Source: Thermoplasmatota archaeon
GTDB taxonomy: Archaea; Thermoplasmatota; Penumbrarchaeia; Penumbrarchaeales; Penumbrarchaeaceae
NCBI GenBank assembly: GCA_965234725.1
Contig: CBDDUX010000063.1
Coordinates: 1 to 64,000 of the forward strand
Reading direction: 5' to 3'
Length of the DNA: 64,000 bases
The notes below the pieces were generated by a model, which did not search any database, was not told the DNA's origin, and saw only the letters and a program-made list of their open reading frames with translations. A program made the position numbers and the translations under genes. Of this stretch, positions 999-51,162 are shown in pieces; position 1 is the stretch's first letter; each line of letters starts with the position of its first letter.

Positions 999-1072
999 GT
1001 TGAAACCTCTATCGCATAAAAGCGGATATCCTTTATCTTTTCAGTGCCGAAAATGGGATGAGACTGTTGATC

Positions 1073-1405
1073 TTAGAACAGGTCTTTCGCACTTTCAGTA
1101 GGTGAATAGATAATCCAGTTCTTTTCCTGCCTGCCAACTATCAAACCTGCATCCCTGAGTCTTGAAAGATGGTAAGAGAGCTTGGAATCTTGTACAGAAA
1201 TGATCTCTTTGATGCAACAAACACACAAAGGTTGGACCATGAGGACCTTCAGTACCTTCAACCTGATGGGATCCGAAAGGGCTTTGTAAGCATTCGCGGT
1301 CCTCTCCAGGTCCTCATCACCCGGTATCATCTCCGATATACCCTCCAGTCCCCCAACTTTCATGACCTCTTCCTTTATCGGATCGGGTATCTCCATTCTG
1401 ACCAC
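1073..1405 (-). CDS. arsR: ArsR/SmtB family metalloregulator
   Basis: YKALSDPIRLKVL, LCVCCI (alpha3 Cys motif), SKLSYHLSRLRDAGLI; divergent from a permease. Confidence 0.85.
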   Translation of the reverse strand: MVRMEIPDPIKEEVMKVGGLEGISEMIPGDEDLERTANAYKALSDPIRLKVLKVLMVQPLCVCCIKEIISVQDSKLSYHLSRLRDAGLIVGRQEKNWIIYSPTESAKDLF

Positions 1406-1480
1406 CTATTTCAACAAATTTCAAAATAGAAATGATTATATACCTTTGAAGCATAGTCTATTTCAAAGTTGTTTGAAACG
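1406..1480. promoter_or_regulatory. Two probable ArsR operator inverted repeats in the divergent promoter
   Basis: CTATTTcaacaaatttcaAAATAG (1406-1429) and TTTCAAA-gttg-TTTGAAA (1461-1478); both sites begin CTATTTCAA. Confidence 0.55.
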
Positions 1481-1499
1481 CTTAAGGAGTATATGCGAC

Positions 1500-2576
1500 A
1501 TGATAGATATCATTTTGGAAGCACTCCTCTCTGGCCTGGGGGCTCTGGTCGATTATGTGACGAACCATACCGTGACCTGTCTGGTCCCTGCCCTCTTCAT
1601 TGCAGGAGCTATCGCTGCTTTCGTGAAGAAGGAGGCCATACTGAAATATCTTGGACCAGGTGTGAAAAGGTATATCTCCTATCCAATAGCAGCCACTTCA
1701 GGTGTGATCCTTGCAGTCTGCTCCTGCACCATACTTCCACTCTTTGCGGGAATTTACAAGAAAGGTTCAGGTATCGGACCGGCAACGGCATTTCTATACA
1801 GCGGTCCTGCTATCAATGTTCTTGCAATTTTCTACACTGGGAGTGTACTGGGATACGACCTCGGAGCCGCAAGGGCGGTAGGAGCGATCATCATGTCGAT
1901 GGTGATAGGGGTCTACATGTCCATCTTCTTCAGGGAACATGACAGAGATCTCATAAGGGATGCAAGGAAGAATCCGTTACCTCAAATGGACACTGATGGA
2001 CCTAAAAGAGCGAGATGGGTCGTACCCGCACTCTTTGCCCTCCTGATGGGGATCCTTATCATCGCTGCATCATCAATTGCCTGGATATTCAAAGGACCTG
2101 TCGTCCTCATACTCCTTGCCCTACTCGGCCTCCTTATCTGGAAGAAATTGGAAAGGGATGACCTGAGGGATTGGTGGGATGAGACCTGGGACCTTTCAAA
2201 GAAGATAGTCCCCATTCTGGTCATAGGGGCTTTCCTGGTTGGAATTATAGCATACATACTTCCTCCCGAGACCTTCACACCCCTGGTCGGAGGAGAATCG
2301 ATACTTTCCGATCTGATAGCATCCGTGATCGGAGCTCTACTCTACATGCCCACCCTCCTTGAGGTTCCCATCATAGGAACCACCTTTGGTTACCTTGATG
2401 GGAAGATGGGAGCGGGTCCTGCACTTTCTCTTCTCCTTGCCGGTCCCGCTGTCAGCCTTCCTAACATGATAGTATTGTACAAGATCATGGGATTGAAGAA
2501 GACACTAGCATACATTATAATGGTGATAATCTTTTCAACAATGGCCGGTCATATCTACGGTAATCTGATCGTTTGA
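1500..2576 (+). CDS. ArsP/DUF318 family permease
   Basis: Multi-TM; CLVPALFIAGAI, AVCSCTILPLFAGIYKKG, LLAGPAVSLP motifs; start taken at MIDIIL. Confidence 0.85.
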   Translation: MIDIILEALLSGLGALVDYVTNHTVTCLVPALFIAGAIAAFVKKEAILKYLGPGVKRYISYPIAATSGVILAVCSCTILPLFAGIYKKGSGIGPATAFLYSGPAINVLAIFYTGSVLGYDLGAARAVGAIIMSMVIGVYMSIFFREHDRDLIRDARKNPLPQMDTDGPKRARWVVPALFALLMGILIIAASSIAWIFKGPVVLILLALLGLLIWKKLERDDLRDWWDETWDLSKKIVPILVIGAFLVGIIAYILPPETFTPLVGGESILSDLIASVIGALLYMPTLLEVPIIGTTFGYLDGKMGAGPALSLLLAGPAVSLPNMIVLYKIMGLKKTLAYIIMVIIFSTMAGHIYGNLIV

Positions 2577-2591
2577 GGATGGTGAAATTAA

Positions 2592-2822
2592 ATGAAGATA
2601 GAGATACTGGGATCAGGATGTGCAAAGTGTAAGAAACTTGCTAAGAACACTGAAAAGGCTGTGAAGGAGACAGGGAAGGATGCGAAGATCATCAAGGTTG
2701 AGGACATGATTGAGATAATGGAAAGGGGTATCATGCTCACACCTGCACTTGCAGTGGATGGCAAGGTGGTCTCCACAGGCAAGGTCCTTTCCCCGAAGGA
2801 AATTGGCGATCTGTTAAGGTGA
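2592..2822 (+). CDS. Small thioredoxin-like redox protein (MTH895/Thioredoxin_3 type)
   Basis: IEILGSGCAKC...TPALAVDGKV; GGTGA RBS. Confidence 0.9.
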   Translation: MKIEILGSGCAKCKKLAKNTEKAVKETGKDAKIIKVEDMIEIMERGIMLTPALAVDGKVVSTGKVLSPKEIGDLLR

Positions 2823-3304
2823 CCAGATTAAATATCAACCATTACTTTACCTGGCCCTTGACCGAGATAGGCCTCCTGACCGTGGAAAAAGTAACGACCG
2901 ATGCTCAGCTGGTAGAAGTACACCGGATAAGGAAACTGGTGTTCATAATCGAACAGAACGTACCTTGGGATAGGGAATATGATGAGTTCGAAGGATCATC
3001 CCAGCATTTCCTGGCAATGATGGATGGTCGACCTGTCGGATGCGGAAGGATAAGACCTTACGGGAAGGATATGAAACTGGAAAGATTGGCAGTTATCAAA
3101 GAATACAGGAAAAAGGGGATCGGAAAGGTGATCATGAAGGTACTCGAAGAGGAAGCTATGAAGCATTCTCCTCGGGAATTGGTCCTCCATTCGCAGGTAT
3201 CGGCCATGGGTTTTTACAGATCATGCGGTTATACCGAAAGGGGAGTTACATTTCTCGATGCGGGGATTGACCACATGGAAATGATTAAGGAGGGCATCCA
3301 ATGA
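2819..3304 (+). CDS. GNAT family N-acetyltransferase (YjcF/ElaA-like)
   Basis: IRKLVFIIEQNVP, RLAVIKEYRKKGIG, FYRSCGY, FLDAGIDH; true start may be GTG 2882. Confidence 0.85.
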   Translation: MTRLNINHYFTWPLTEIGLLTVEKVTTDAQLVEVHRIRKLVFIIEQNVPWDREYDEFEGSSQHFLAMMDGRPVGCGRIRPYGKDMKLERLAVIKEYRKKGIGKVIMKVLEEEAMKHSPRELVLHSQVSAMGFYRSCGYTERGVTFLDAGIDHMEMIKEGIQ

Positions 3305-5094
3305 CAAGAAAGGGAAGCATCAGGGAAAGGAGTGAGATCGAGATCCCCATGAAATGGGACCTGGAGGGCATGTACGGGAATGAGGCCGAATGGGAGAGAG
3401 ACCTGAGATGGATCGAGGAAAGAACAAAGACCATTGTGGATCTGAAAGGCACTCTGAACAAACCATCGACCATTGCCGACATGATAAGGAGAACCGATGA
3501 TATATCCAGAAAGCTGGAGAAGGTATATACATATTCACACCTCAGACACGATGAGGACCTCAAGAACAGGAGATACCAGGAACTCCATGACAGGGCTGTC
3601 AATATTATGGTTAAACTCGAGACCGAGACCTCTTTCATCATACCGGAGATCCTGGAGCTTCCTATTGAGAAGCTCTCAGCCCTTCCGGAGGAAGAGGTCC
3701 TCAAGTTCGCTGAAGTACCATTGAGGGAGATGATAAGGCGGAAGGAACATTTCCTTTCCAAAGAAGAGGAGAAGCTCCTTGCAATGGTAGATGATGCTTT
3801 GGAAACCCCATCCAAGGCCTTCAAGATGCTGAATGACGCTGACCTGACCTTCCCGGTCATCCAGGACGAGGAGGGGAATGAGGTGGAGCTTTCCCATGGG
3901 AGATATATCTCCTTCATGACCTCCGACGACAGGGGTGTGAGGGAAAGGGCATTCAAAGCATTATATTCCGTATACAAGGCCCACAGGAACACCTTCACTG
4001 TCCTTCTCGAGGGTGAGATAAAGAAAAGGATGTTCAGGTCCAGGGCAAGGAAATATCCGTCCCAGCTTGCCGCATCACTTGATAGCGACGAGGTAACGGT
4101 CGAGGTCTATGGATCCCTGATAGAAGCGGTAAAAAGACATCTTCCGTCCATGTATGACTACCTTGATATCAGAAAAAGGGTCCTTGGAATAGACCAGGTC
4201 CATTTCTACGATGTATATGCCCCTCTTGTGAAGGATTTCGACAAGAGGATCCCTTATGAAGAAGCATGGGAGATCGTTACGGAAGCATTGGAACCCCTGG
4301 GAAGTGATGTCACATCGATACTTGGAAAGGCTAGGAATTCCAGATGGATCGATGTATATGAGAACAGGGGCAAACGCTCCGGAGCATATTCATCAGGATG
4401 CTATGATTCCTACCCTTACATACTCCTGAATTACGATGAGAAGGTGAATGATGTTTTCACCCTTGCACACGAACTGGGCCATTCCATACATACATACCTT
4501 TCGAACAAGAACCAACCTCATCTCACAGCGGATTACAGGATCCTTGTGGCCGAGGTTGCATCGACAGTGAACGAGAACCTGCTTCTTCACCATCTTTCAA
4601 AGATATGGACCACGAGAGAGGAGAGAGCATATCTGGTCAATCATCATCTGGACAGTTTCAAGGGAACCGTTTTCAGACAGACCATGTTCGCAGAGTTCGA
4701 AAAGGAAGTATCCGAAATAATCGAGAGAGGGGTACCACTGACGGCAGACGGTCTTTCCGAGGTCTACGGAAGGCTGAACGATGAACATTTCGGGCCCGGG
4801 ACCTTCCATGATCAGGAGATTAACCTGGAATGGTCAAGGATCCCTCATTTCTACTACAATTTCTATGTTTACAAATATGCCACCGGATTCTCGGCAGCCA
4901 CAGCGATCTCGAACGGTCTGATCAATGGAAGCCTGGACCTTGATGATTACCTGGGCATGCTTAAAAAGGGTGGTTCGAGTCCTCCACTGGACCTCCTCCG
5001 GGGGGTCGGAGTAGACCTATCATCTCCGGAACCTATTGATAAAGGTCTGACACTGTTCGATTCTCTTGTAAACGAACTTGACGGGCTTCTATGA
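3301..5094 (+). CDS. pepF: Oligoendopeptidase F (M3B)
   Basis: GKRSGAYS, AHELGHSIH zinc motif, AEVAST, WSRIPHFYYNFYVYKYATG. Confidence 0.95.
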   Translation: MTRKGSIRERSEIEIPMKWDLEGMYGNEAEWERDLRWIEERTKTIVDLKGTLNKPSTIADMIRRTDDISRKLEKVYTYSHLRHDEDLKNRRYQELHDRAVNIMVKLETETSFIIPEILELPIEKLSALPEEEVLKFAEVPLREMIRRKEHFLSKEEEKLLAMVDDALETPSKAFKMLNDADLTFPVIQDEEGNEVELSHGRYISFMTSDDRGVRERAFKALYSVYKAHRNTFTVLLEGEIKKRMFRSRARKYPSQLAASLDSDEVTVEVYGSLIEAVKRHLPSMYDYLDIRKRVLGIDQVHFYDVYAPLVKDFDKRIPYEEAWEIVTEALEPLGSDVTSILGKARNSRWIDVYENRGKRSGAYSSGCYDSYPYILLNYDEKVNDVFTLAHELGHSIHTYLSNKNQPHLTADYRILVAEVASTVNENLLLHHLSKIWTTREERAYLVNHHLDSFKGTVFRQTMFAEFEKEVSEIIERGVPLTADGLSEVYGRLNDEHFGPGTFHDQEINLEWSRIPHFYYNFYVYKYATGFSAATAISNGLINGSLDLDDYLGMLKKGGSSPPLDLLRGVGVDLSSPEPIDKGLTLFDSLVNELDGLL

Positions 5095-5095
5095 A

Positions 5096-6391
5096 TCATT
5101 GTGGTTTGTAACGTCCCCATTTCTCAAGGGACCTTCCAAGCTCCTTTGAGCTCTTGGCCCTCTCCTCAAGCGTGATGCCATCCATCCAAGCTTCGACAGC
5201 ATGCATGGCCGCAACCGCACCTGAGCGTGTACCATCCGGATGACCGTGGATACCACCACTCACAAGAAGGACCAGGTCCGTTCCGTAGATATCCATAACA
5301 TCCGGAACAAGTCCCGGATGAAGTCCTCCCGAGGATACAGGGAAAGCGCTCTTGATACTGCCCCATTCTTGTTCCATCAGGACCCCTTTCTTCCCCTTCG
5401 TAACCTTCTCACGGAGTACGTCGGCAATGGATGTGACCTCATCCTTCGATCCCACAAGCTTTCCAACCGCAGTTCCTGAATGGATCTGGTTAACACCAAT
5501 TAGCCTCATCGTCTTGGCGATGAACTGCATGGATATGCCATGTAATGGATTCCTGTCAAAAGCCGCATGCATTGCCCTGTGAGCATGAATGCATAATCCC
5601 AGGTCCCTGGTATGTTCGATGATCGATTGAACACCCGCATGTCCGACTATCACCACATCCACCATGGCATATCTGAAACCGTTCTCATGAAGAAGTTCAG
5701 CCCTTCTCTTCATCTCCTCTACATCAGCAGTGATGTTCACAAAGGCATCCTTGATCTCTCCCGTCCTTTTCTCGGCCCTATCCCTATATTTTGAAAGCAG
5801 TTCCACCCTTTTATCAAACCTGTTGAATTTGAGGGAGGTCAGGTTCTCATCATCCTTGACGAAATCGAAACCACCCATCCAGGTTTCATACCCAACCTTC
5901 GCATGTTCCAGAGCAGAGAATCCTATCTTGGGTTTTGGAACGGCTCCGGTCAAAGGTCTCTTTTCTACCTTCATCATTCTCCTGATACCTTTTATGGATC
6001 TGTTGGGTCCTTTGAATGATGAAATATATTTCCTTGGAAAGGTGACATCTATCAACCTCAGATTCTCCACACCTTTCATTCCGAATATATTGCCAGCGAT
6101 CCCGGAAAGCAGTTGACAAATGTTCCCTTTCTCCCACAGGTCCAATGGATATGACACTTTAAGGAGGTCCCCATCCATATCATAAGCGGTGGCTTGAAGC
6201 CCCTTCATCCGATCTGGTAATTGAGAAAGGGTGGTCCACGTACCGGTGGAACTTTCGGAAGCGATCCGACCGGCACTCTCCTTTCTGGACATGCCTGAAG
6301 GGGGATCGAACCGGAAAAGGACCAAAAGCTCATCATTTCCCGGCGTGTAATTTAGGTCTACGAATTGATCATACCAATCTATCTTGGCCAT
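5096..6391 (-). CDS. rbcL: RuBisCO large subunit, form III-like
   Basis: ESSTGTW, PKPKIG, GGFDFVKDDENL (carbamylation motif), HAHRAMH, HSGTAVGKL, SSGGLHP, GGIHGHP; start at MAKIDW. Confidence 0.93.
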   Translation of the reverse strand: MAKIDWYDQFVDLNYTPGNDELLVLFRFDPPSGMSRKESAGRIASESSTGTWTTLSQLPDRMKGLQATAYDMDGDLLKVSYPLDLWEKGNICQLLSGIAGNIFGMKGVENLRLIDVTFPRKYISSFKGPNRSIKGIRRMMKVEKRPLTGAVPKPKIGFSALEHAKVGYETWMGGFDFVKDDENLTSLKFNRFDKRVELLSKYRDRAEKRTGEIKDAFVNITADVEEMKRRAELLHENGFRYAMVDVVIVGHAGVQSIIEHTRDLGLCIHAHRAMHAAFDRNPLHGISMQFIAKTMRLIGVNQIHSGTAVGKLVGSKDEVTSIADVLREKVTKGKKGVLMEQEWGSIKSAFPVSSGGLHPGLVPDVMDIYGTDLVLLVSGGIHGHPDGTRSGAVAAMHAVEAWMDGITLEERAKSSKELGRSLEKWGRYKPQ

Positions 6392-6425
6392 GGTCCGTTT
6401 TATCCTTCTAATGATATTAAGGTTT

Positions 6426-6812
6426 CTACACATAACCTGTCATGTCATAGCTCATAGGTGTTGAACCCTTGTAGCATTTCTCCTTCCACTGGGCGAAGTC
6501 CACTATTGTGTTCATAAGTACCGTTTTATTCACAGCTCCAACGATCTCTCCTATGGGTTTCTTGTGGCAGAAGAACTTGAATGTAGGTACCGAACGAACA
6601 CCATAGACCATTGAAACCTCCTGATAGAGTTGAGCATTTATCCTGCAGAATTCGGCCTTCGATCCGACATTTTTGGCAAGTTCCCTGTAGATTGGTTCCA
6701 TTGCCTGGCAGTTGGGGCATGAATTCGTATAGAACTCAACGATCACCATTTGATCGCATTTGTTGATCACCTCATCGAACTGTTCTTTGTCAAGTTCTCT
6801 CACATCATTCAT
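6426..6812 (-). CDS. Thioredoxin family protein
   Basis: VEFYTNSCPNC, YGVRSVPTF. Confidence 0.85.
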   Translation of the reverse strand: MNDVRELDKEQFDEVINKCDQMVIVEFYTNSCPNCQAMEPIYRELAKNVGSKAEFCRINAQLYQEVSMVYGVRSVPTFKFFCHKKPIGEIVGAVNKTVLMNTIVDFAQWKEKCYKGSTPMSYDMTGYV

Positions 6813-6897
6813 TCAATACCCCCTGAACTATATGCTAATACTATTTTGAGCATACTTCAATTTAACTGGTGATCTGGTTATTGTTCGGGCAAAACAC

Positions 6898-7169
6898 TTA
6901 TAATGGAACAGTATTGGAAGCCCTGACACATAGGAAAAACTAAAGATTGGACGGTCAGGATGGTAGAGACCCGGTTGATGGGACCGAAGCAGTCCCACTG
7001 ATGGAATAAGAGGGCCCTTTGGCAGATCAGGATCCTTTTTTTTGCGATACCGTCTCGATACTGACCAGACCGAACAGGGAAGGTATGAGGCAAATGGTTG
7101 GAAATATCAAAGAATGTTCGACATATTCCATACCTTCCGAACCCTGTGTGGAACCAAACAGGTGATAAT
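6898..7169 (+). promoter_or_regulatory. pnp promoter (TTATAA 6898-6903), long structured 5' leader and GGTGA RBS
   Basis: Helices GGTCAG 6953-58/CTGACC 7061-66; GAGAC/GTCTC; TGGGAC/GTCCCA; GGAAGGTATG 7078-87/CATACCTTCC 7129-38. Confidence 0.55.
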
Positions 7170-9431
7170 ATGAACAAGGTCGAAAGATTCGAGACCGAAT
7201 ATGCAGGTAAAAAAGTGATAGTCGAACATGGAAAGATGGCAAACCAGGCGAGTGCCTCTGTTACAGTCCAGATGGGAGAGACGATGGTCCTCGCAACTGC
7301 TACCATGTCAAAGAAAGCAAGGGAAGGAATGGATTTCTTCCCGCTTATGGTGGATTACGAGGAAAGGTATTCCGCTGTGGGAAAGATCAAAGGTCCAAGG
7401 TTCATGAAGAGGGAGGGAAGGCCCTCCAACGAAGCTGTCCTTACTGGAAGGATGATCGACAGAGGACTGAGGCCTCTTTTCCCCGAGGGTCTGAGGAACG
7501 ATGTGCAGATAATCATCATGCCACTCAGCCTGGACAATGAGAACAAACCCGATGTGGTAGGGATCATCGCGGCAACCATAGCCCTTGAGATATCCGACAT
7601 CCCATTTGACGGACCTATAACTGGTTGCAGGGTGGGGATGGTGAACGGAGAGTACATTCTGAATCCTTCGGCAGAAGAGATAGAATTCTCCGAACTGAAC
7701 CTGGTGGCAATGGGAGATTCAAAGAGGATCACAATGGTGGACTGCGATGCCAGAGAGCTTCCGGACACCATGGTACTTGATGCATTCGACATTGCCATGA
7801 AGACAATGGGACCGATGATCAAGTTCATGGAGACCCTCAGAAAGAAGATCGGCAAGGAGAAGAAGAAGAGGGAAGACCTCCACTGGAACGCTGAGATCTC
7901 CTCCGAGGACCAGAAGGTCCTGGATAAGATCAAGAAAGCAGCGATACCTGAACTTGAGAAGTATCTTTTCAACAAACCCGTTGGTTCAAAAGGAGAGCGT
8001 AAGATAGTGATCCATGAGCTTGAAGAAAAGCTGATCACCGATCTTTTGAAAAAATACAAAAGGAAGGACATGACCCCACAGGAGACGGAATCTTACGTCA
8101 AGCGCCTCATGTCGAAGTTCTTCTTCGAGTTCATAGAAGACCAGGTGACAGAAGCAATTCTGGAGAAGGACCAGAGGGTGGATGGAAGGAAACTGGACCA
8201 GATCAGACCGCTTTCAGCAGAAGTTGGAATAATCCCTAGAAGTCATGGGACCGGTCTTTTCAGCAGAGGAGAGACACAGGTTCTCTCTTTCTGCACACTG
8301 GGTTCTCCGGGAGACGATCTCCTGGTGGAGACCATGGAGAACGATAGCAAGAAGAAGTACTTCCATCACTACAATTTCCTCCCCTTTTCAGTGGGAGAGG
8401 TGAAACCCATCAGAGGAGCTGGAAGGAGAGAAATTGGACACGGTGCTCTTGCAGAAAAGGCACTGATACCTGTCCTACCCAGCCATTCGGAATTCCCATA
8501 CACGATCAGGGTCGTTTCCGAGGTGATGGGATCCAACGGTTCATCCTCAATGGGTTCTACTTGCGGTTCCACCCTTGCGTTGATGGATGCGGGAGTTCCC
8601 ATCAGGAGACCAGTTGCCGGAATGGCAATGGGACTTGCTTCCAACGGAAAGAAATGGAAGGTCCTGACGGACCTCCAGGACCTGGAGGACGGAAAGGGAG
8701 GAATGGATTTCAAGTTCACTTCCACAGAAGAAGGGATCACCGGCATTCAGATGGATACCAAAACACCTGGTCTCACCATTGACATCATCAAGGCCACTTT
8801 CCCACAGATGAGGAAGGCGATTTCAGAGGTCCTCGAAGTGATGAAAAAGGCTATCTCCGCACCAAGGGAGGAGCTCTCAGAGTATGCACCCAGGATCATC
8901 TCTCTTACAATCGATCCGGAAAAGATCGGAGATGTCATTGGACCTGGAGGCAAGATGATCAGGTCCATGTGCGAGGATTTCGAGGTCCAGATAGATGTGG
9001 AGAATGACGGTACCATAATGATCACATCTGATAGTTCCAGCAATGCGAAACTTGCGGAGAAGAAGATCAGGTCCATCGTCAGAACGCTTGAAGTGGGTGA
9101 TATCTTCGAGGATGCAGAGGTTGTAAAGATCATGCCATTCGGAGCTTTCGTCAAATTGACAGAGAAGGTCGATGGACTTCTTCATGTCTCGGAGATCGAA
9201 TGGGGTCATGTAGACAAAGTCACCGACAGGGTCCAGCCAGGAGACAGGATCAGGGTCAAGGTCATCGCTATCGACAGGGGTAAGGTCGAGGTCTCGATGA
9301 AAGCTCTCCTTCCCAGGCCAGAGGGTGCCAAGGATTCCGTCCGAAGGCCTCCAAGGAGAGGACCTCCAAGGGGAAAACCCCAATCCCACAGAGGGAACTC
9401 CAGCAGACCGCCAAGGTCAAACCGAAATTGA
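7170..9431 (+). CDS. pnp: Polyribonucleotide nucleotidyltransferase (bacterial-type PNPase)
   Basis: DFFPLMVDYEE, KREGRPS, DRGLRPLFP, HGTGLFSRGETQ, RREIGHGALAE, SNGSSSM, DMDFK-like GMDFK, KH (IGPGGKMIR), S1 (FGAFV...DGLLHVSEI). Confidence 0.97.
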   Translation: MNKVERFETEYAGKKVIVEHGKMANQASASVTVQMGETMVLATATMSKKAREGMDFFPLMVDYEERYSAVGKIKGPRFMKREGRPSNEAVLTGRMIDRGLRPLFPEGLRNDVQIIIMPLSLDNENKPDVVGIIAATIALEISDIPFDGPITGCRVGMVNGEYILNPSAEEIEFSELNLVAMGDSKRITMVDCDARELPDTMVLDAFDIAMKTMGPMIKFMETLRKKIGKEKKKREDLHWNAEISSEDQKVLDKIKKAAIPELEKYLFNKPVGSKGERKIVIHELEEKLITDLLKKYKRKDMTPQETESYVKRLMSKFFFEFIEDQVTEAILEKDQRVDGRKLDQIRPLSAEVGIIPRSHGTGLFSRGETQVLSFCTLGSPGDDLLVETMENDSKKKYFHHYNFLPFSVGEVKPIRGAGRREIGHGALAEKALIPVLPSHSEFPYTIRVVSEVMGSNGSSSMGSTCGSTLALMDAGVPIRRPVAGMAMGLASNGKKWKVLTDLQDLEDGKGGMDFKFTSTEEGITGIQMDTKTPGLTIDIIKATFPQMRKAISEVLEVMKKAISAPREELSEYAPRIISLTIDPEKIGDVIGPGGKMIRSMCEDFEVQIDVENDGTIMITSDSSSNAKLAEKKIRSIVRTLEVGDIFEDAEVVKIMPFGAFVKLTEKVDGLLHVSEIEWGHVDKVTDRVQPGDRIRVKVIAIDRGKVEVSMKALLPRPEGAKDSVRRPPRRGPPRGKPQSHRGNSSRPPRSNRN

Positions 9432-9455
9432 TCTCTCGGAAAGGATAGGATCTAG

Positions 9456-9490
9456 AATGGGAGGATGGGGATCTCCCCCCTCCTCCCATT
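9456..9490 (+). terminator. Stem-loop after pnp
   Basis: AATGGGAGGA/TCCTCCCATT 10-bp outer stem plus inner GGGGA/TCCCC. Confidence 0.55.
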
Positions 9491-9550
9491 GAATCCTCAT
9501 AACATTTTTATAATTCTAACATGTGGCCCACTGATATAGGAGATGAAAGG

Positions 9551-10357
9551 ATGGAGAAGGATAACTTCGACCACATCGTCGAGGCCAGAGAGGTCGTCAA
9601 GATATACGATACAGGTAGTGTTAAGGTCAATGCTTTGAGGGGGATAGATCTCAAGGTAGGGAAGGGTGAGATGGTTGCTATAATGGGACCTTCCGGATGC
9701 GGCAAGACCACATTACTCAACTGCCTTTCAGGACTTGACGACGTAACATCAGGATCGGCCTTGATAGAAGGGACGGACCTTGCAAAGATGAAGGATAATC
9801 AGAGGACCGAATACAGGGCAAAGAACATGGGATTCGTTTTCCAATTCTACAATCTTCTCCCGGTCCTGACCGCTGTTGAGAACGTTGAAATGGTACTTCT
9901 CCTGAGTGGTGTCAGGCCCAAAGAGGCCCGCAAGAAAGCAGAAGAAGCATTGGCTGTTGTAGGTTTAAAAGGATTGGAGAAGCACAGACCTTCCCAGCTC
10001 TCAGGTGGACAGAGGCAGAGGGTTACGATGGCCAGGGCCCTTGTGAACGAACCAAAGATCGTCTGGGCCGATGAACCCACCGGAGATCTGGATAAAGCGA
10101 ATTCCAACGATGTCATGGAATTGATGAAGGACCTGAACCGCAGGCTCAAGATGACATTCGTCATCGTCACTCACGATCCTGATGTCGCCTCCAAATGCAG
10201 AAGGATCATCCACATGGAGGACGGTCTCATAGTGAAGGATGTTCCGATCACAGCAAAGGGAGCGTTAACACATCCCAGAGCTGGCGAATACGAGGGCAGA
10301 AGGGAACAGGACCTGGGTGCGGCCAAGATTTCCTTGGAGCAGAGAGCTTCACTTTGA
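9551..10357 (+). CDS. ABC transporter ATP-binding protein (LolD/MacB-like)
   Basis: [27 protein letters not shown]. Confidence 0.95.
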
Positions 10358-10398
10358 TCGGGGGTGTTCTTCTGGTCTCATTTAGAAAGACATTGAGC

Positions 10399-13300
10399 AT
10401 GGTATCCGAGATCGGTCTGACAATTTTCCTATTCATTCTGGTACTGACAGTAATTCTTGGTCTGTATGTTGTCCCTGGCCAAATGAAACCATTGATCACC
10501 ATGTTGGCCCTGTTCTTCCTGGTCATTACACTGTTTTGGATTGGCATCCTGGCGGTTCTTCACAGATTGCTCTTCAAGATGGGGCTCAGGAACCTGGTGA
10601 GACACAGAAGCGACACTATCATTGCGATCCTGGGATTCATGGTGGGGACATCGATCATCTGTTCATCCATGGCCATCGGTGACACCATGTCATCGATGAT
10701 CGAGGACCTTGTTTACGACTCCTATAATTTAACTGATGAATACATGGTAATAAACGATGCCAACGGCGAACCTCTGGACATCAACGGAACATTTGCTACG
10801 AGGATGTCAGATATTATCTGGTCACTTCAAGATGAAGACCTTGTGGACGGAGTGTCATGGGAGTACACCCATCAGGTATCTGCCATTGACATGAGTACCA
10901 TGCTGTTCGAACCTGTCATTACATGCAGGGCCCTGAACCCTGGAACATACAATGCTTTCGGATCACTAAGGTCCGGAGGGTCTCAGCTTGATTATAACCT
11001 GGGCCCCGGCGAGGTATATATGAGCAAGGACCTGAAAGAGAAACTTGAGTCCAATGTGGGAAGCGTTGTGACGGTCTCCACAGGGCCCAATACCTACAAT
11101 TTCACCGTGAAAGCGATCGTGGATGAAGAAGGCAGGGCCAAAAGTCTGGGTGGAGCAGGCCTCTACATGGACTTTCGATCGATCTGGGACCTTGCGAACG
11201 TGACACCAGAAGAAGAAGGTCCGGTCGGATCCGACAGGGACTGGAAGGGTGGAGTTTACAATATCCTCTATATCTCCAATACAGGAGGGAGAGTTGGAGG
11301 TGGCGACCTATGTCCGGATGTAATGGACAGGCTGGAAGAGGAATTCGGTTCGATCGAGCACCCCCTTGGTCCTTTGATGGAACTGAGCATCACAGCCAAC
11401 AAGAAGGAGAGCGTAGATAATGCGATCCAATCCTTTGACATGTTCACCAAATTGTTCCTGGTCCTTGGCACCTTCACAATAATTGCAGGAATAACCCTTA
11501 TCATCAATATCTTCGTCATGCTTTCAGAGGAGAGGAAGGAGGAAATGGGGATCTCTAGAGCAGTGGGAATGCGAAGAAAGGACCTGAGACTTACCTATCT
11601 ATTCGAAGGTCTTGTCTATTCGACCGTATCATCGTTCATCGGGGTGATATTGGGTGTCCTATCCGGTCTGGGAATGATCTGGGGTATGCAATCCATATTC
11701 GATTCTTTTGGAGCTGGTGGATTGGACCTTCTGGGCAACTATACGGTCACTCCCTTTTCTCTGGTCCTTAGCTTCATTGCAGGCTTCACCATCACAATTA
11801 CCACCACGCTTTTCATTACCAGAAGAGTGGCCAAACTGAACATAGTCTCCGCGATAAGGAACACTCCGATACCAAAGAAGAGACCCTATCTTGTCAAGTT
11901 GAGCCAGGAGATATGCGGTGTATATGATGTCAAGACTTGCTCCGGGGATGACTCGGCACTATCAAAGGTCCTCCAGTATCTGTTCGACAAGATGACAATA
12001 CTTGGTTTCATGTCAATAATGATCGGGATCCCGCTACTGGTCCTGGGTGTCATGATCAAGCAAATGGCACCCACGAGCCTGGGGATCTCATTGATGCTGA
12101 TCGGAATTGCGCTTGTCATCAAATACTTCACAAATGAAAGGATCACTTATTCGATCGCAGGTATCCTTGTCCTCCTGTTCTGGATCGTTCCCCTTCCCAT
12201 TTTCAATGATTACTCCGGGAACCTGGAGATGTTCATCCTTTCCGGTATCTTCATGGTATCATCGGCCGTTCTTCTCCTTGTCTGGAACACAGATATAATC
12301 CTCTGGGTGGTCGAGAAGGTAGTGACATTAATCGGAGCTTCTCCCGCAGCCATCAAAACAGCTATCTCCTATCCGATAAAGAAGAGGTTCAGGACCGGTG
12401 TTACGATATTCATGTTCGCCCTGATCATATTCACCATCACCGGGATGTCCATGATCGTTCACATAATGAGTGTCAACATCGAGAGTTGGGAGGAGACCAT
12501 CGGAGGCGGATACAATGTCATAGGTGTTTCAAATGTAGGTATAGATAACATCGAACAGGCGACCCTGGAAGAGGAATCCGTCATTCCACTTGACATCAAA
12601 GTGCATGACAGGATCGACTGGAATAGAACGATCTCCATTTCCGTAGGCATACTTTCCATTAACTTATCCATCTCATATCAAGGAATGACATTTGAGAACG
12701 AGATGATCTCCCAATGCGCGGGTGTTGGGTTGGATTTCATAGAGAGGAACACGTATGGTTTCTCTACCGTGGATTGGGACCTTGTTTACCCGGAAGGCAG
12801 TAAGGTCAAAGATGACCGGGATGTCTGGACCGCTCTGATGAACGATCCGGACTATGTGGTCCTTGACGGATCCATGGGGGGAGATAGTCCTTTCGGTCCC
12901 GCTGGAGGAGGAGGGGGCCTTCTCGATGTAGGAGATGTGATTGAACTAAAAACAGTTGACGGGACCATTCACAACAAGACCATCATTGGGTTCACCGAAC
13001 AGATGGCGATCTACGGTGTCTTCATGTTCAATGAGACAGCGGCTTCCCAGTTCGGTGTGACCGAGAAGAAGGTCCATCTGATAACTGTCAAGAGCGGAAA
13101 TTCAGATAATGAGGTAGCCAACGACCTGAAGAGGGTCCTATTGCGATACGGAATGTTTACTTTCATCGTTTCGGATATCATAGATCAGATCCTGGAAGCC
13201 CAGAATGCTTTCTTCAATCTGTTCAACGCCTTCCTGTCCCTGGGGTTGGTCATCGGGGTGATCGGACTCAGCATAGTCACGTTGAGGGCCGTATATGAAA

Positions 13301-13605
13301 GAAGGCACGAGATCGGCATGATGAGGGCAATTGGCTTCAAGAGGAGCTCTGTTGTTTGGTCCTTTATGGGAGAGTCCGCATTCATCGCCGGGTCAGGATT
13401 ACTGCTTGGTACGGTCCTGGGGATCATCCTGGGATGGATGCTGTGGAGGGATTCCTTCGGCGAGACCATGACCGAGTTCGGGGTTCCATGGGCCAAACTG
13501 CTCGGGATAGTGTCTCTGGCATTCGGAGTGGCTCTGCTTTCCTCCATACCACCTGCACTCAAAGCTGCCAGGGTGGTACCTGCAGAAGCACTAAGATACG
13601 ATTAA
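10399..13605 (+). CDS. FtsX/MacB-like ABC permease with two permease modules
   Basis: EERKEEMGISRAVGM and YERRHEIGMMRAIGF motifs, C-terminal PAEALRYD; start uncertain (ORF open from 10195). Confidence 0.9.
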   Translation: MVSEIGLTIFLFILVLTVILGLYVVPGQMKPLITMLALFFLVITLFWIGILAVLHRLLFKMGLRNLVRHRSDTIIAILGFMVGTSIICSSMAIGDTMSSMIEDLVYDSYNLTDEYMVINDANGEPLDINGTFATRMSDIIWSLQDEDLVDGVSWEYTHQVSAIDMSTMLFEPVITCRALNPGTYNAFGSLRSGGSQLDYNLGPGEVYMSKDLKEKLESNVGSVVTVSTGPNTYNFTVKAIVDEEGRAKSLGGAGLYMDFRSIWDLANVTPEEEGPVGSDRDWKGGVYNILYISNTGGRVGGGDLCPDVMDRLEEEFGSIEHPLGPLMELSITANKKESVDNAIQSFDMFTKLFLVLGTFTIIAGITLIINIFVMLSEERKEEMGISRAVGMRRKDLRLTYLFEGLVYSTVSSFIGVILGVLSGLGMIWGMQSIFDSFGAGGLDLLGNYTVTPFSLVLSFIAGFTITITTTLFITRRVAKLNIVSAIRNTPIPKKRPYLVKLSQEICGVYDVKTCSGDDSALSKVLQYLFDKMTILGFMSIMIGIPLLVLGVMIKQMAPTSLGISLMLIGIALVIKYFTNERITYSIAGILVLLFWIVPLPIFNDYSGNLEMFILSGIFMVSSAVLLLVWNTDIILWVVEKVVTLIGASPAAIKTAISYPIKKRFRTGVTIFMFALIIFTITGMSMIVHIMSVNIESWEETIGGGYNVIGVSNVGIDNIEQATLEEESVIPLDIKVHDRIDWNRTISISVGILSINLSISYQGMTFENEMISQCAGVGLDFIERNTYGFSTVDWDLVYPEGSKVKDDRDVWTALMNDPDYVVLDGSMGGDSPFGPAGGGGGLLDVGDVIELKTVDGTIHNKTIIGFTEQMAIYGVFMFNETAASQFGVTEKKVHLITVKSGNSDNEVANDLKRVLLRYGMFTFIVSDIIDQILEAQNAFFNLFNAFLSLGLVIGVIGLSIVTLRAVYERRHEIGMMRAIGFKRSSVVWSFMGESAFIAGSGLLLGTVLGIILGWMLWRDSFGETMTEFGVPWAKLLGIVSLAFGVALLSSIPPALKAARVVPAEALRYD

Positions 13606-13627
13606 TGAAAAGTTTTTGGACCTGATA

Positions 13628-13975
13628 TCACAGGTCCAATGAATTTTCCCAGAGACCGTGTATATTGCAGTAAGATGTTGCTACAATGGATTTGAAGTCT
13701 CCCAGATTCACATGGAAATCAGCCGATGGCTCTGTATATGATGGTGAGAAATTGGCCTTTCCAAGGTCTATGACCATTCCGTTCTGCTTCACTCCCACAA
13801 GCTGTGCCCATGCAATGTGATGTTCGATTGTATTCGGATGAGCGACAGTTTTTCCAACAATGATCCTAACAAGGTCCTTTCCGCCCTTTCCATCTCCCTT
13901 GCATATCTCCAGCTCCGGAACGTGCTTCTCTTTTCCCTCGCTTTCTCCACTCTTGTATATCTCACATGTATGCAT
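13628..13975 (-). CDS. sor: Superoxide reductase (neelaredoxin/1Fe-SOR)
   Basis: EKHVP, HPNTIEHHIAW, YCNIHGLW iron ligands. Confidence 0.92.
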   Translation of the reverse strand: MHTCEIYKSGESEGKEKHVPELEICKGDGKGGKDLVRIIVGKTVAHPNTIEHHIAWAQLVGVKQNGMVIDLGKANFSPSYTEPSADFHVNLGDFKSIVATSYCNIHGLWENSLDL

Positions 13976-14133
13976 CTTATCACCTTTTTGGGTCCAAGGC
14001 CCTCTTCCAAGGCCTTTTCTTGTTCCTGTAACAGTTGGAGATGCAATAAACCTGTTGATTACCCATATGCCTGAAATGTTAAAGGTACACCGATCCCCTC
14101 AATCTTTTATTATCACCTGAGGAATACCCCATC

Positions 14134-15540: not shown

Positions 15541-15576
15541 ATTCCTCCTCAATATCTATAATTATAATGATTTCCA

Positions 15577-21732: not shown

Positions 21733-21988
21733 CTGAGGGATTTCAGATGGTCATGTTCGTATTTAATCCTTCCAGAAACCTAAAATTCAAGGTATAGATC
21801 TGGAATTAACATACCAGGTGGACTGTAATTGATACTGGACCATGGGAAATGCTTTTATATCTCGAAAAATCGAGGACAGATAAAATATATAAATACCTGT
21901 GGATAGGTCAGGTGCAGTTACTACAGGGTTCGGAAGAAAGGTTATATCCCATCCTGTAACTCGGAAATCACATATCGGAGGTCGGCAT

Positions 21989-37156: not shown

Positions 37157-37215
37157 GAAAGCTGATTGTGATTGCTTCAAGATAAGTTTAACGTGAAATA
37201 CAGTACCAATAATAT

Positions 37216-51155: not shown

Positions 51156-51162
51156 TCACCCC

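What the first reader, a model, noticed from the sequence alone, without database searches (positions are those of the whole stretch)
7170..9431. Complete bacterial-type PNPase in an archaeal chromosome
Seen: full PH1-alpha-PH2-KH-S1 PNPase with catalytic motifs intact, preceded by an archaeal TATA box and GGTGA RBS, using the AGA/AGG-rich codon style of its neighbours, on the same stretch as TFS, Trm1, DRG and form III RuBisCO. Established: archaea are generally described as lacking PNPase and using the Rrp41/Rrp42 exosome, or RNase R in halophiles. Inference: an old, ameliorated transfer that may replace or supplement the exosome. It also has an Arg/Pro-rich C-terminal tail that could be a disordered RNA- or partner-binding segment.
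Basis: partly seen in the sequence, partly recalled or inferred. Interest (0 to 1): 0.75.

Follow-up and report, generated by a model that had tools for sequence, protein, structure and literature searches.

The report
Bacterial-type PNPase inherited in Thermoplasmatota archaea
An archaeon of the Thermoplasmatota carries a complete, well-conserved copy of PNPase, an RNA-degrading enzyme that textbooks say archaea lack, and a whole group of related archaea shares it, apparently acquired long ago from tiny CPR/Patescibacteria-type bacteria.

Summary
Window 7170-9431(+) encodes a 753-aa canonical PNPase (TIGR03591 836.5 bits against a cutoff of 525; PH1-alpha-PH2-KH-S1). All catalytic and RNA-channel residues are intact, and a 41-aa Arg/Pro-rich tail is predicted to be disordered. 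The contig is archaeal (TBP, TFS, Trm1, DRG, type III RuBisCO).

It is not a chimera. An independent assembly (L001) is collinear over 11 aligned gene pairs on both sides of the gene. Codon usage matches the neighbours, and dN/dS is 0.05.

It is not unique. 119 other 90%-identity clusters at 57-88% identity form one clade. Of the 15 that carry an organism name, 14 are Thermoplasmatota and some lie on 3.5-5.2 Mb contigs.

In trees this clade sits inside Patescibacteria (CPR) PNPases. An AU test rejects holding all CPR-type rows together without the archaea (p about 1e-6). Whether the archaea are sister to, or nested within, the Buchanan-/Falkow-/Uhrbacteria-type subgroup is unresolved (p 0.49).

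Best reading: one ancient CPR-to-archaeon transfer, ameliorated and then inherited vertically, giving a working phosphorolytic 3'-5' exoribonuclease and tailing enzyme. Whether it replaces or supplements the exosome could not be tested. Nine full-text searches found no paper reporting an archaeal PNPase.

The parts
7170..9431 (+). PNPase (pnp) coding sequence, 753 aa plus stop
   Evidence: ORF. TIGR03591 836.5 bits against cutoff 525. PDB 8zaw_A E 2.4e-182. Foldseek best hit 7ogm_L E 1.9e-66, TM 0.68/0.74.
7209..7802 (+). First RNase PH domain: PH1 (residues 14-145) plus RNase_PH_C (residues 148-211). It contains the channel loop KGPRFMKR (residues 74-81).
   Evidence: Pfam PF01138 and PF03725. 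Loop alignment.
7803..8156 (+). All-alpha linker domain (about residues 212-329)
   Evidence: Weak Pfam PF03726 match, 18.1 bits against cutoff 24.6. AF2 model helices 199-227, 245-267, 274-295 and 303-333.
8157..8858 (+). Second, catalytic RNase PH domain (about residues 330-563). It holds R419/R420, H424, S458-460, D507, D513 and K515.
   Evidence: Second RNase_PH stretch. Rrp41-model match over residues 330-563. Residue mapping.
8898..9071 (+). KH domain (residues 577-634)
   Evidence: Pfam PF00013, E 1e-09.
9087..9299 (+). S1 domain (residues 640-710)
   Evidence: Pfam PF00575, E 3.3e-16.
9306..9428 (+). Basic Arg/Pro/Gly-rich C-terminal tail (residues 713-753), predicted to be disordered
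   Evidence: Composition. pLDDT below 50 at 723-747 and 750-753. A tail of 30-145 aa is present in 123 of 123 clade rows.
7161..7165 (+). GGTGA Shine-Dalgarno-like motif, 4 nt before the ATG
   Evidence: Sequence. Conserved in L001.
6898..6904 (+). TATA-like TTATAAT inside a conserved block. It is a candidate promoter for a long leader or for a separate small transcript.
   Evidence: Conserved between the window and L001. Function is inferred only.
7036..7043 (+). T8 run at the end of a conserved block. It could be an archaeal terminator or attenuator.
   Evidence: Sequence. T7 in L001. Not found by the bacterial-type terminator scan.
7077..7138 (+). Conserved inverted repeat, GGGAAGGTAT (7077-7086) and ATACCTTCC (7130-7138), around a variable 43-nt stretch in the 5' region
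   Evidence: Both arms are conserved and the loop is variable against L001. The pairing appears in the MFE and centroid folds, but the energy z-score of -0.78 is not significant.

Best explanation
The gene encodes a functional, canonical polynucleotide phosphorylase.

**Inferred from homology.** It assembles as a ring-shaped homotrimer. Single-stranded RNA 3' ends are captured by the S1/KH cap and threaded past the channel loop (F78-M79-K80-R81). The second RNase PH domain then shortens them phosphorolytically, releasing NDPs. This uses Mg2+ bound at D507/D513/K515 and phosphate bound at S458-460. In the reverse reaction the enzyme adds heteropolymeric A-rich tails.

**Shown here.** The gene is resident in the genome of a Thermoplasmatota archaeon. 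It belongs to a deep clade of PNPases found almost only in Thermoplasmatota-labelled genomes. That clade arose from within the PNPases of CPR/Patescibacteria bacteria. The simplest history is one ancient bacterium-to-archaeon transfer, followed by amelioration and vertical inheritance under strong purifying selection.

**Inferred only.** The basic, disordered C-terminal tail is conserved in composition across the clade and present in weaker form in the CPR relatives. It most likely provides extra non-specific RNA affinity or a docking site for a partner.

**Open.** In the cell, PNPase would provide the 3'-5' phosphorolytic decay and tailing role that the Rrp41/Rrp42 exosome has in other archaea. 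Whether it acts alongside the exosome or in its place is not known.
For: **Family membership**
- Scores are far above the curated cutoffs and the domain set is complete.
- PDB sequence matches go down to E 2.4e-182. The model (pLDDT 77.8, pTM 0.74) matches solved PNPases at TM 0.6-0.9.
- Catalytic residues are invariant or conservatively substituted in 123 of 123 clade rows.

**Resident, not an artefact**
- L001, an independent assembly with a PNPase 86% identical, is collinear with window 63-16371. I aligned 11 gene pairs, at 64-86% amino-acid identity, on both sides of the gene.
- L002 keeps the PNPase-ABC ATPase-permease order.
- Codon usage is host-like: GC3 z 1.48, AGR z 0.95, likelihood z +1.11 against 35 genes.
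- dN/dS against L001 is 0.052, within the neighbours' range of 0.030-0.072.
- Archaeal markers on the same contig: TBP, TFS, Trm1, DRG and type III RuBisCO.

**Clade**
- The 119 best hits other than the window's own record are 57-88% identical. Fifteen carry an organism name: 14 Thermoplasmatota/Thermoplasmata/Proteinoplasmatales and 1 '[Eubacterium] cellulosolvens'. P0020, P0044 and P0052 lie on contigs of 4.23, 5.16 and 3.58 Mb.
- FastTree on 343 rows puts all 123 clade rows in one clade with support 100.
- IQ-TREE with LG+C20+F+G4 on 80 rows puts the 25 archaeal rows in one clade (100*). That clade lies inside a 59-row clade (99*) that is otherwise CPR-type. Seven classical bacteria fall on the other side (96*).

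**Origin**
- The AU test rejects holding all 48 non-archaeal, non-classical rows together (delta lnL 130, p 9.7e-7).
- Six of the 20 nearest representatives I looked up carry an organism name, and all 6 are Patescibacteria: Uhr-, Abawaca- and Gracilibacteria, Paceibacterota and 2 'Patescibacteria group'.
- Shared derived characters: a one-residue insertion in the channel loop (present in 122 of 123 archaeal-clade, 73 of 73 CPR-locus, 51 of 140 unbiased representative and 0 of 7 classical rows), and GGMDFK instead of GDMDFK (123 of 123, 73 of 73, 4 of 140 and 0 of 7).
- Identity to classical bacterial PNPases is only 37-46%, against 46-56% to the CPR loci.
Against: - Activity, trimer formation and any role of the tail are inferred. 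Nothing was assayed, and a trimer exceeds the size limit of the complex predictor.
- The exact sister group is unresolved. Holding the 34 Buchanan-/Falkow-/Uhr-/Magasanikbacteria-type rows together without the archaea costs only 1.5 lnL (p-AU 0.486).
- I chose the groups for both AU tests after seeing a first tree.
- The CPR loci were retrieved with patterns that include TD[LI]QD[LM]ED.
- Only 14 of the 119 clade hits carry archaeal names. The earliest-branching subclade (P0082, P0106, P0113, P0119) has none, and one of its members carries a bacterial label.
- AF2 confidence is low at residues 49-58, 67-84 and 383-422, which include the channel loop and part of the active-site approach.
- L003 and L004 have different gene neighbourhoods that are not diagnostic of either domain by Pfam.
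Confidence: 0.8

Rival explanations
1. Assembly or binning artefact: a bacterial (CPR) fragment was joined into an archaeal contig, or the contig is not archaeal.
For: The gene's nearest non-archaeal relatives are CPR bacteria, which commonly share sediment and groundwater samples. One clade member carries a bacterial label (P0082).
Against: - L001 is collinear on both sides of the gene, and L002 on the downstream side, in independent assemblies.
- There is no compositional break.
- Clade members lie on 3.6-5.2 Mb contigs labelled Thermoplasmata.
- TBP, TFS, Trm1 and DRG lie on the same contig.
- The clade is separated from every CPR row by a stem of 0.33 substitutions per site.
Confidence: 0.02
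2. Ancient vertical inheritance: PNPase was present in an early archaeal ancestor and was lost everywhere except this Thermoplasmatota clade.
For: The clade is deep and under strong purifying selection.
Against: - The archaeal clade is nested within bacterial (CPR) diversity rather than sister to all bacteria. The AU test rejects the tree that keeps the CPR-type rows together (p 9.7e-7).
- It shares two derived characters with CPR subgroups.
- Published surveys describe no archaeal PNPase (PMC2723993 passage; PMC7144898 Figure 7 legend).
Confidence: 0.03
3. Reverse or multi-step direction: the Buchanan-/Falkow-/Uhrbacteria-type CPR group obtained its GGMDFK-type PNPase from these archaea, or both obtained it from a third, unsampled lineage.
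For: The AU test cannot tell whether the archaea are nested within or sister to that CPR subgroup (p 0.486). The two groups share GGMDFK, which only 4 of 140 unbiased representatives have.
Against: - The successive outgroups of the joint clade are themselves CPR wherever they are named: Paceibacterota, Abawacabacteria, Gracilibacteria and 'Patescibacteria group'.
- A CPR ancestor for the joint clade therefore needs one transfer. The reverse route needs two.
- The loop insertion is widespread in CPR-type representatives outside the joint clade (51 of 140).
Confidence: 0.07
4. The enzyme is retained for a role other than bulk RNA decay, for example mainly as a tailing polymerase, an sRNA or ribosome quality-control factor, or a DNA-repair helper. 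The exosome would remain the main 3'-5' decay machine.
For: - Exosome subunits are recorded for most genomes of other Thermoplasmatota orders in published tables: the Rrp42 row in the Thermoprofundales table of PMC9585477, and Rrp42, Rrp4 and K11600 in PMC9287336.
- Thermoplasma acidophilum has a solved exosome (PMC11201974; search listing and abstract only).
- Coexistence is therefore plausible.
Against: Nothing here speaks against it. It refines the best explanation rather than contradicting it. Catalytic residues for phosphorolysis are all conserved.
Confidence: 0.35

Closest known systems
Bacterial PNPase (Pnp; TIGR03591/NF008805; E. coli b3164; solved structures such as 3GCM, 7OGK, 4AM3 and 8ZAW)
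   Same: - Same five-domain order and the same fold (TM 0.6-0.9).
- Same metal-binding, phosphate-binding and channel residues.
- Scores above the equivalog cutoffs.
   Different: - Only 37-46% identical to classical bacterial enzymes.
- One extra residue in the channel loop (KGPRF against PGG-F), IDRG[LI]R instead of IDRPIR, and GGMDFK instead of GDMDFK.
- A 41-aa basic tail where E. coli has a 20-aa acidic, Ala-rich one.
- The host is an archaeon.
- It is not next to rpsO as in E. coli. Here it diverges from thioredoxin and lies upstream of an ABC transporter.
PNPases of CPR/Patescibacteria, as labelled by submitters: Buchanan-, Falkow-, Uhr- and Magasanikbacteria. Their assignment to one CPR class is recalled and was not tested.
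   Same: - They are the closest non-archaeal relatives, at 46-56% identity.
- They form a joint clade with the archaea (99*).
- They share the loop insertion and GGMDFK.
- Most have G/R-rich tails: 67 of 73 are at least 15 aa long.
   Different: - The archaeal clade is separated by a long stem of 0.33.
- It has an invariant G at the IDRG position (123 of 123 against 11 of 73).
- Its loop has P rather than S (KGPRF against KGSRF).
- Its tails are more basic: R+K 32% against 21%.
Archaeal exosome (Rrp41/Rrp42 hexamer with an Rrp4/Csl4/DnaG cap)
   Same: - Same RNase PH fold and the same phosphorolytic chemistry.
- Equivalent catalytic Asp/Asp/Lys, as stated in PMC2723993.
- The same expected cellular role, including heteropolymeric tailing (PMC1635327 passages).
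   Different: - In the exosome, the subunits are separate polypeptides of about 250 aa and the cap proteins are separate.
- Here a single chain fuses both PH domains with KH and S1.
- It scores 114.7 bits on the Rrp41 model against a cutoff of 318.7, so it is not a member.
RNase R of halophilic archaea, the known precedent of a bacterial-type 3'-5' exoribonuclease serving an archaeon
   Same: An archaeal lineage uses a bacterial-type exoribonuclease. In Haloferax it is essential, and the exosome is absent (PMC1635327 passages).
   Different: RNase R is hydrolytic, belongs to the RNR family and does not add tails. It is unrelated in sequence to PNPase.
GpsI, the actinobacterial guanosine pentaphosphate synthetase/PNPase (TIGR02696)
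   Same: Same architecture, with a full-length match.
   Different: 576.3 bits against a cutoff of 1106.75, so it is not a member of that subfamily.

Membership tests
PNPase (polyribonucleotide nucleotidyltransferase, TIGR03591) | Full-length match above the curated equivalog cutoff | tested here: met
   TIGR03591 836.5 bits against 525.05, residues 11-712 on profile positions 2-688 of 689. NF008805 833.7 bits against 471.
PNPase (polyribonucleotide nucleotidyltransferase, TIGR03591) | Domain order RNase PH 1, alpha-helical linker, RNase PH 2, KH, S1 in one chain | tested here: met
   Pfam finds two RNase_PH stretches, RNase_PH_C, KH_1 and S1. The alpha domain is below cutoff (18.1 against 24.6), but it is helical in the model.
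PNPase (polyribonucleotide nucleotidyltransferase, TIGR03591) | Metal-binding Asp/Asp/Lys, phosphate-binding Ser triplet and His of the second PH domain (E. coli D486, D492, K494, S437-439, H403) | tested here: met
   D507, D513, K515, S458-460 and H424 in the window. They are invariant in 123 of 123 clade rows, except S460, which is S in 122 and A in 1. Roles come from PMC2723993 passages.
PNPase (polyribonucleotide nucleotidyltransferase, TIGR03591) | Aromatic/basic channel loop (E. coli FFRR 77-80, R83) | tested here: met
   F78-M79-K80-R81 and R84, with a one-residue insertion before the loop. Loop roles come from PMC2723993 passages.
PNPase (polyribonucleotide nucleotidyltransferase, TIGR03591) | PNPase fold | tested here: met
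   AF2 model with pLDDT 77.8. The 50 best Foldseek PDB matches are all PNPases, with E down to 1.9e-66 and TMt 0.69-0.92.
PNPase (polyribonucleotide nucleotidyltransferase, TIGR03591) | Homotrimeric ring | not testable with these tools
   Three copies of the core exceed the 1000-residue limit of the complex predictor, so I submitted no job.
PNPase (polyribonucleotide nucleotidyltransferase, TIGR03591) | Phosphate-dependent 3'-5' RNA degradation and NDP-dependent polymerisation | not testable with these tools
   This needs a biochemical assay.
Archaeal exosome catalytic subunit Rrp41 (TIGR02065) | Stand-alone RNase PH subunit of about 230-250 aa scoring above the equivalog cutoff | tested here: not met
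   114.7 bits against a cutoff of 318.7. The match is the internal PH2 domain (residues 330-563) of a 753-aa chain.
GpsI/PNPase of actinobacteria (TIGR02696) | Score above the exception-model cutoff | tested here: not met
   576.3 bits against 1106.75.
Thermoplasmatota PNPase clade (defined here) | Groups with the 57-88% identical set to the exclusion of all bacterial rows | tested here: met
   Support 100 in FastTree (123 rows) and 100* in IQ-TREE (25 rows). The window's nearest rows are P0003, L001 and P0007.

The most novel reading that the evidence does not exclude
A deep, species-rich clade of Thermoplasmatota has adopted a CPR-derived PNPase, carrying a basic disordered tail, as its phosphorolytic 3'-5' RNA decay and tailing machine. 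In at least part of the clade it has displaced the Rrp41/Rrp42 exosome. This would be the first archaeal lineage with bacterial-type PNPase-based RNA turnover, and a second independent case, after RNase R in halophiles, of an archaeon replacing the exosome with a bacterial exoribonuclease. The conserved long upstream region (TATA-like box, T-run, conserved hairpin arms) might then be an autoregulatory leader analogous to the bacterial pnp leader.
Probability: 0.2. Interest if true: 0.75.

Novelty: new member of a known kind. Interest (0 to 1): 0.5.

Why it matters
Reviews and structure papers state that archaea have no PNPase and rely on the exosome, or on RNase R in halophiles (PMC2723993, PMC7144898 and PMC1635327; passages read).

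- **A correction to that generalisation.** A large, old, vertically inherited PNPase clade in Thermoplasmatota contradicts it.
- **A donor hypothesis.** It points to a rare informational-type gene transfer from CPR bacteria into archaea.
- **A testable question.** One can now ask whether PNPase and the exosome can coexist in one cell, or whether one displaces the other.
- **A practical point.** Annotation pipelines already call these genes, so presence of PNPase should not be used as a flag for bacterial contamination in Thermoplasmatota bins.

Tried and rejected
**1. Chimeric assembly.** Rejected by synteny, composition and the size of the clade.

**2. TTG start at 7098.** Rejected. The frame is not conserved upstream of ATG 7170 in L001.

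**3. A structured RNA or known RNA family in the 357-nt upstream spacer.**
- Rfam at gathering thresholds found only the tRNA.
- Rfam at E<=1 found only a chance-level viral pseudoknot match, 15.5 bits against 34.
- Fold z-scores of +1.63 and -0.78 are not significant.
- The L003 and L004 upstream regions do not align.
- This is left as an unexplained conserved region.

**4. Bacterial sigma-70 promoter and intrinsic terminator scan.** Nothing meaningful turned up near the gene.

**5. Resolving the exact CPR sister group.** The AU test was inconclusive (p 0.486).

**6. Naming anonymous relatives.** In three cluster look-ups (30 proteins), 6 carried CPR names, 1 carried a bacterial name inside the archaeal clade, and the rest carried none.

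**7. Literature.**
- Nine full-text searches found no paper reporting a PNPase in archaea.
- The three hits for the phrase 'archaeal PNPase': in PMC2723993 the phrase occurs in 'no known archaeal PNPase' (passage read). The other two (PMC5416783, PMC8284320) I saw only as search listings.

**8. Supplements of three Thermoplasmatota genomics papers.**
- They hold no K00962 or 'polyribonucleotide' entry, but they do list exosome subunits.
- These cover other orders and do not settle co-occurrence in this clade.

**9. Exosome, RNase R and aRNase J content of this genome.**
- Not testable. Only 64 kb is available.
- None of the 55 window ORFs I scanned is a stand-alone RNase PH protein.

**10. Trimer prediction.** Not attempted, because of the size limit.
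Full report

Yes. Window 7098..9431(+) is an open frame. The ATG at 7170 gives a 753-aa protein and is the likely start, for three reasons:
- The 86%-identical homologue in L001 aligns from exactly this codon.
- A GGTGA motif at 7161-7165 is conserved.
- The sequence upstream differs by 2-nt gaps that break the frame.

The public protein set holds this protein in a form starting at the TTG (P0001, 777 aa). That form is probably 24 codons too long.

Pfam finds two RNase PH stretches, RNase_PH_C, KH_1, S1 and a sub-threshold PNPase alpha domain. NCBIfam places it as a full-length equivalog of PNPase: TIGR03591 836.5 bits against a cutoff of 525.05, and NF008805 833.7 against 471. It falls below the cutoffs for Rrp41 (114.7 against 318.7) and for actinobacterial GpsI (576.3 against 1106.75).

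Twenty-six distinct PDB PNPase sequences match over most of their length, with E from 2.4e-182 to 4e-110; a 27th matches only the KH-S1 part. An AlphaFold2 model built on a 28-sequence alignment has pLDDT 77.8 and pTM 0.74. It matches solved PNPases only, among the 50 best hits.

**2. Are the catalytic motifs intact?**

I aligned the protein with E. coli PNPase, fetched from the K-12 record, and took residue roles from passages of PMC2723993.

| E. coli residue(s) | Role | Window residue(s) |
|---|---|---|
| D486, D492, K494 | Metal ligands | D507, D513, K515 |
| S437-439 | Phosphate site | S458-460 |
| H403 | Active-site His | H424 |
| R398/R399 | Active-site Arg pair (role recalled, not from the passages read) | R419/R420 |
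| FFRR (77-80) | Channel loop | F78-M79-K80-R81 |

Across the 123 rows of the archaeal clade these positions are invariant or conservatively substituted (F/Y, K/R). There is one S-to-A exception and one gapped row.

**3. Is the contig archaeal and the gene resident?**

The window encodes these archaeal markers:
- TBP (50628-51155)
- TFS (49661-50053, minus strand; Zn_ribbon_TFIIS plus RPB9 ribbon)
- Trm1 (47571-48758, minus strand)
- a DRG-type GTPase (56969-58072; MMR_HSR1, its extension, and TGS)
- type III RuBisCO (5096-6433, minus strand)
- a heliorhodopsin (15577-16371)

L001 comes from an independent assembly labelled 'uncultured Thermoplasmatales archaeon'. It is collinear with window 63-16371 in this order: band-7 protein, permease, GNAT, PepF, RuBisCO, thioredoxin, PNPase, ABC ATPase, FtsX-type permease, superoxide-reductase-like ORF, M28 peptidase, heliorhodopsin. 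The eleven pairs I aligned are 64-86% identical in amino acids. L002 (72% identical) keeps the PNPase-ABC ATPase-permease order.

PNPase composition and codon usage lie within the spread of 35 other window genes:

| Measure | PNPase | Other genes | z |
|---|---|---|---|
| GC | 0.501 | 0.476 ± 0.020 | 1.25 |
| GC3 | 0.594 | 0.528 ± 0.045 | 1.48 |
| AGA/AGG share of Arg codons | 92% | 80% | 0.95 |
| Synonymous-codon likelihood | – | – | +1.11 |

dN/dS against L001 is 0.052, with saturated dS (1.7). The neighbours with computable values range from 0.030 to 0.072. A chimeric join is therefore excluded for practical purposes. The gene is under strong purifying selection.

**4. How widespread is it?**

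The word-indexed search scored 8000 candidates. The best 119 hits, apart from the window's own protein, are full-length PNPases at 57-88% identity. Fifteen carry an organism name:
- 14 are Thermoplasmatota, Thermoplasmata or 'Proteinoplasmatales SG8-5'.
- 1 (P0082) is labelled '[Eubacterium] cellulosolvens'.

Three lie on contigs of 3.58, 4.23 and 5.16 Mb. The locus is therefore one member of a large family of archaeal PNPases that annotation pipelines already name.

It returned only four archaeal loci (L001-L004: 86, 72, 64 and 62% identity). It does not enumerate the archaeal distribution.

**5. Where did it come from?**

*Identity to other groups.* After the four archaeal loci, the 76 next-best loci of that scan are 46-56% identical. 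Forty-three are labelled Patescibacteria or candidate phyla of the CPR (Buchanan-, Falkow-, Uhr- and Magasanikbacteria). Twenty-six are TPA MAGs labelled 'uncultured Gammaproteobacteria', two of them chromosomes of only 0.93 and 1.00 Mb. The other seven are five plain 'bacterium' MAGs, one 'Bacillota' and one 'Planctomycetota'. Classical bacterial PNPases are 37-46% identical. The exhaustive search of 1.84 billion cluster representatives gave 26,599 hits at E<=0.001. Identity there declines smoothly from 53%.

*Overview tree.* A FastTree tree of 343 rows comprised:
- 123 archaeal-clade rows
- 73 full-length bacterial loci from the scan
- 140 anonymous representatives
- 7 classical bacteria

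I dropped four partial loci (L002, L044, L074, L075), P0001, and proteins outside 620-900 aa. The tree places all 123 archaeal-clade rows in one clade with support 100. That clade sits inside the CPR-labelled rows.

*Reduced tree.* An IQ-TREE analysis under LG+C20+F+G4 (quick search, SH-aLRT) used 80 rows: 25 archaeal, 30 of the 73 CPR-type loci, 18 of the 140 representatives and 7 classical. I chose these after seeing the first tree. The result:
- The archaeal clade has support 100* and a stem of 0.33.
- It lies within a 59-row clade (99*) that is otherwise CPR-type.
- Its sister is a Buchananbacteria-type group (93), followed by a Falkowbacteria trio (88).
- The classical bacteria form the other side (96*).

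*Naming the nearest representatives.* Of the 20 I looked up, 6 carry organism names. All 6 are CPR: Uhrbacteria, Abawacabacteria, Gracilibacteria, Paceibacterota and two 'Patescibacteria group'.

*AU tests.*
- Keeping the 34 rows of the inner CPR subgroup together without the archaea is not rejected (delta lnL 1.5, p 0.486).
- Keeping all 48 CPR-type rows together without the archaea is rejected (delta lnL 130, p 9.7e-7).

*Shared sequence characters*:

| Character | Archaeal clade | CPR loci | Unbiased representatives | Classical |
|---|---|---|---|---|
| One-residue insertion in the channel loop | 122/123 | 73/73 | 51/140 | 0/7 |
| GGMDFK instead of GDMDFK | 123/123 | 73/73 | 4/140 | 0/7 |

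The four representatives with GGMDFK are consistent in number with the four that fall inside the 59-row joint clade in the tree (P0121, P0122, P0123, P0125), but I did not check their identity. The second character lies next to one of the retrieval patterns, so for the loci it is partly by construction. The representatives are unbiased.

*Conclusion.* The most economical reading is a single transfer from a CPR/Patescibacteria-type bacterium into an ancestor of this Thermoplasmatota clade.

**6. The C-terminal tail**

The window's tail (residues 713-753) has 10 Arg, 2 Lys and 9 Pro in 41 residues. It is modelled with pLDDT below 50.

| Group | Tail length | Composition |
|---|---|---|
| Archaeal clade (123/123 have a tail) | 30-145 aa, median 48 | R+K 32%, G 16%, P 13% |
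| CPR loci (67/73 have at least 15 aa) | median 43 aa | R+K 21%, G 16% |
| Classical bacteria (7) | median 15 aa | Mostly acidic; Collinsella is basic |

The tail therefore predates the transfer in a weaker form and became more basic in the archaea. A role in RNA binding or partner docking is inferred only.

**7. Expression signals**

PNPase diverges from a thioredoxin gene across a 357-nt spacer (6813-7169). The spacer is 81% identical to L001 overall. Identity is concentrated in four blocks:
- one containing TTATAAT (6898-6904)
- one ending in a T8 run (7036-7043)
- the two arms of an inverted repeat, GGGAAGGTAT (7077-7086) and ATACCTTCC (7130-7138), around a variable stretch
- the GGTGA-ATG region

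The arms pair in the predicted folds, but folding energies are no better than those of shuffled sequence. Rfam has no match. The more distant loci L003 and L004 do not align.

That would imply a leader of about 240 nt containing a T-run, or else a separate small transcript. This remains unexplained.

**8. Mechanism**

From homology, the protein should form the PNPase trimer. It should thread 3' ends through the channel loop to the PH2 active site and remove nucleotides with phosphate, or add them from NDPs. In other archaea the exosome performs both reactions, and tailing correlates with its presence (PMC1635327 passages).

Shown here: family membership, intact residues, selection, residency and phylogenetic origin. 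Inferred: activity, oligomeric state, tail function and cellular role.

**9. Exosome question**

This could not be answered. None of the 55 window ORFs I scanned is a stand-alone RNase PH protein, but 64 kb is a small sample.

Published tables for other Thermoplasmatota orders list exosome subunits in most genomes and contain no K00962 entry:
- Thermoprofundales: PMC9585477, supplement searched.
- Lutacidiplasmatales and relatives: PMC9287336.
- The supplements of PMC9239135 hold none of the search terms.

Thermoplasma acidophilum has a solved exosome (PMC11201974; search listing and abstract only). The phylum's default is therefore an exosome. Coexistence in this clade is at least as likely as replacement.

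**10. Novelty**

The established view is that there is no archaeal PNPase:
- The Figure 7 legend of PMC7144898 (2020) assigns PNPase to bacteria, and the exosome or RNase R to archaea.

Nine full-text searches found no paper reporting PNPase in any archaeon. The library lacks most subscription journals, so this is not proof of absence.

The enzyme itself is an ordinary PNPase. What is new is its host domain, the size and age of the archaeal clade, and the CPR affinity. I rate it a new member of a known kind, with moderate interest.

**11. Limits**

- The taxonomic labels are the submitters' own.
- Only 14 of 119 clade hits are named archaeal.
- The earliest-branching subclade (P0082, P0106, P0113, P0119) has no archaeal label, and P0082 carries a bacterial one.
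- The trees come from quick searches. I defined the AU-test groups after seeing a tree.
- The GTDB scan was pattern-limited and truncated.

Noticed in passing
window 6813-7169: The 357-nt spacer upstream of PNPase is conserved in blocks with L001. The blocks are a TATA-like TTATAAT (6898-6904), a stretch ending in T8 (7036-7043), and inverted-repeat arms at 7077-7086 and 7130-7138 around a variable loop. It could be a long regulatory leader with an attenuator or a small RNA gene. There is no Rfam match, the fold energies are not significant, and it is not alignable in L003 or L004.
   Followed up: partly
window 15577-16371 (+); L001 19247-20020: A heliorhodopsin gene (NF038020, 349.7 bits against cutoff 100). 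It is 86% identical and syntenic in L001.
   Followed up: no
window 21899-27052, 27519-32600, 52165-56871 (+): Three very large ORFs (1717, 1693 and 1568 aa) have no NCBIfam match at E<=1e-5. Other large ORFs nearby (18715-21732, 34532-37237, 59181-62351) carry adhesin or Ig-like repeat domains. They are probably surface proteins.
   Followed up: no
P0082, with P0106, P0113 and P0119: The earliest-branching subclade of the 'archaeal' PNPase clade has no archaeal label. P0082 is a RefSeq protein labelled [Eubacterium] cellulosolvens, on a 22-kb contig. It is either a mislabelled or contaminating archaeal contig, or a bacterial holder of this PNPase type. No DNA context was available to decide.
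   Followed up: partly
L006, L008, L010, L013, L030 and other TPA loci; L016; L046: Many MAGs labelled 'uncultured Gammaproteobacteria', and one each labelled Bacillota and Planctomycetota, carry PNPases that nest among Falkow-, Buchanan- and Uhrbacteria rows. Two of them are complete chromosomes of only 0.93-1.00 Mb. The labels are probably generic or wrong, and the organisms are probably CPR.
   Followed up: partly
window 7098-7169; P0001: The public protein record for this gene starts at the TTG at 7098 (777 aa). Comparison with L001 indicates that the true start is ATG 7170 (753 aa).
   Followed up: yes
window 39080-39625 (+) and 51133-52020 (+): Two other nuclease-family genes lie in the window: a Mut7-C RNase-domain protein (PF01927, E 3.3e-34) and a TatD-family hydrolase placed directly after TBP.
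   Followed up: no
window 9521-10357 and 10195-13605 (+): The ABC ATPase and the FtsX-type permease ORFs overlap by 163 nt as listed. The L001 permease ORF is 60 codons shorter, so the real permease start is probably downstream of 10195.
   Followed up: no
window 5096-6812 (-): Type III RuBisCO and a thioredoxin form a pair that overlaps by 8 nt and is transcribed away from PNPase. The arrangement is conserved in L001.
   Followed up: no
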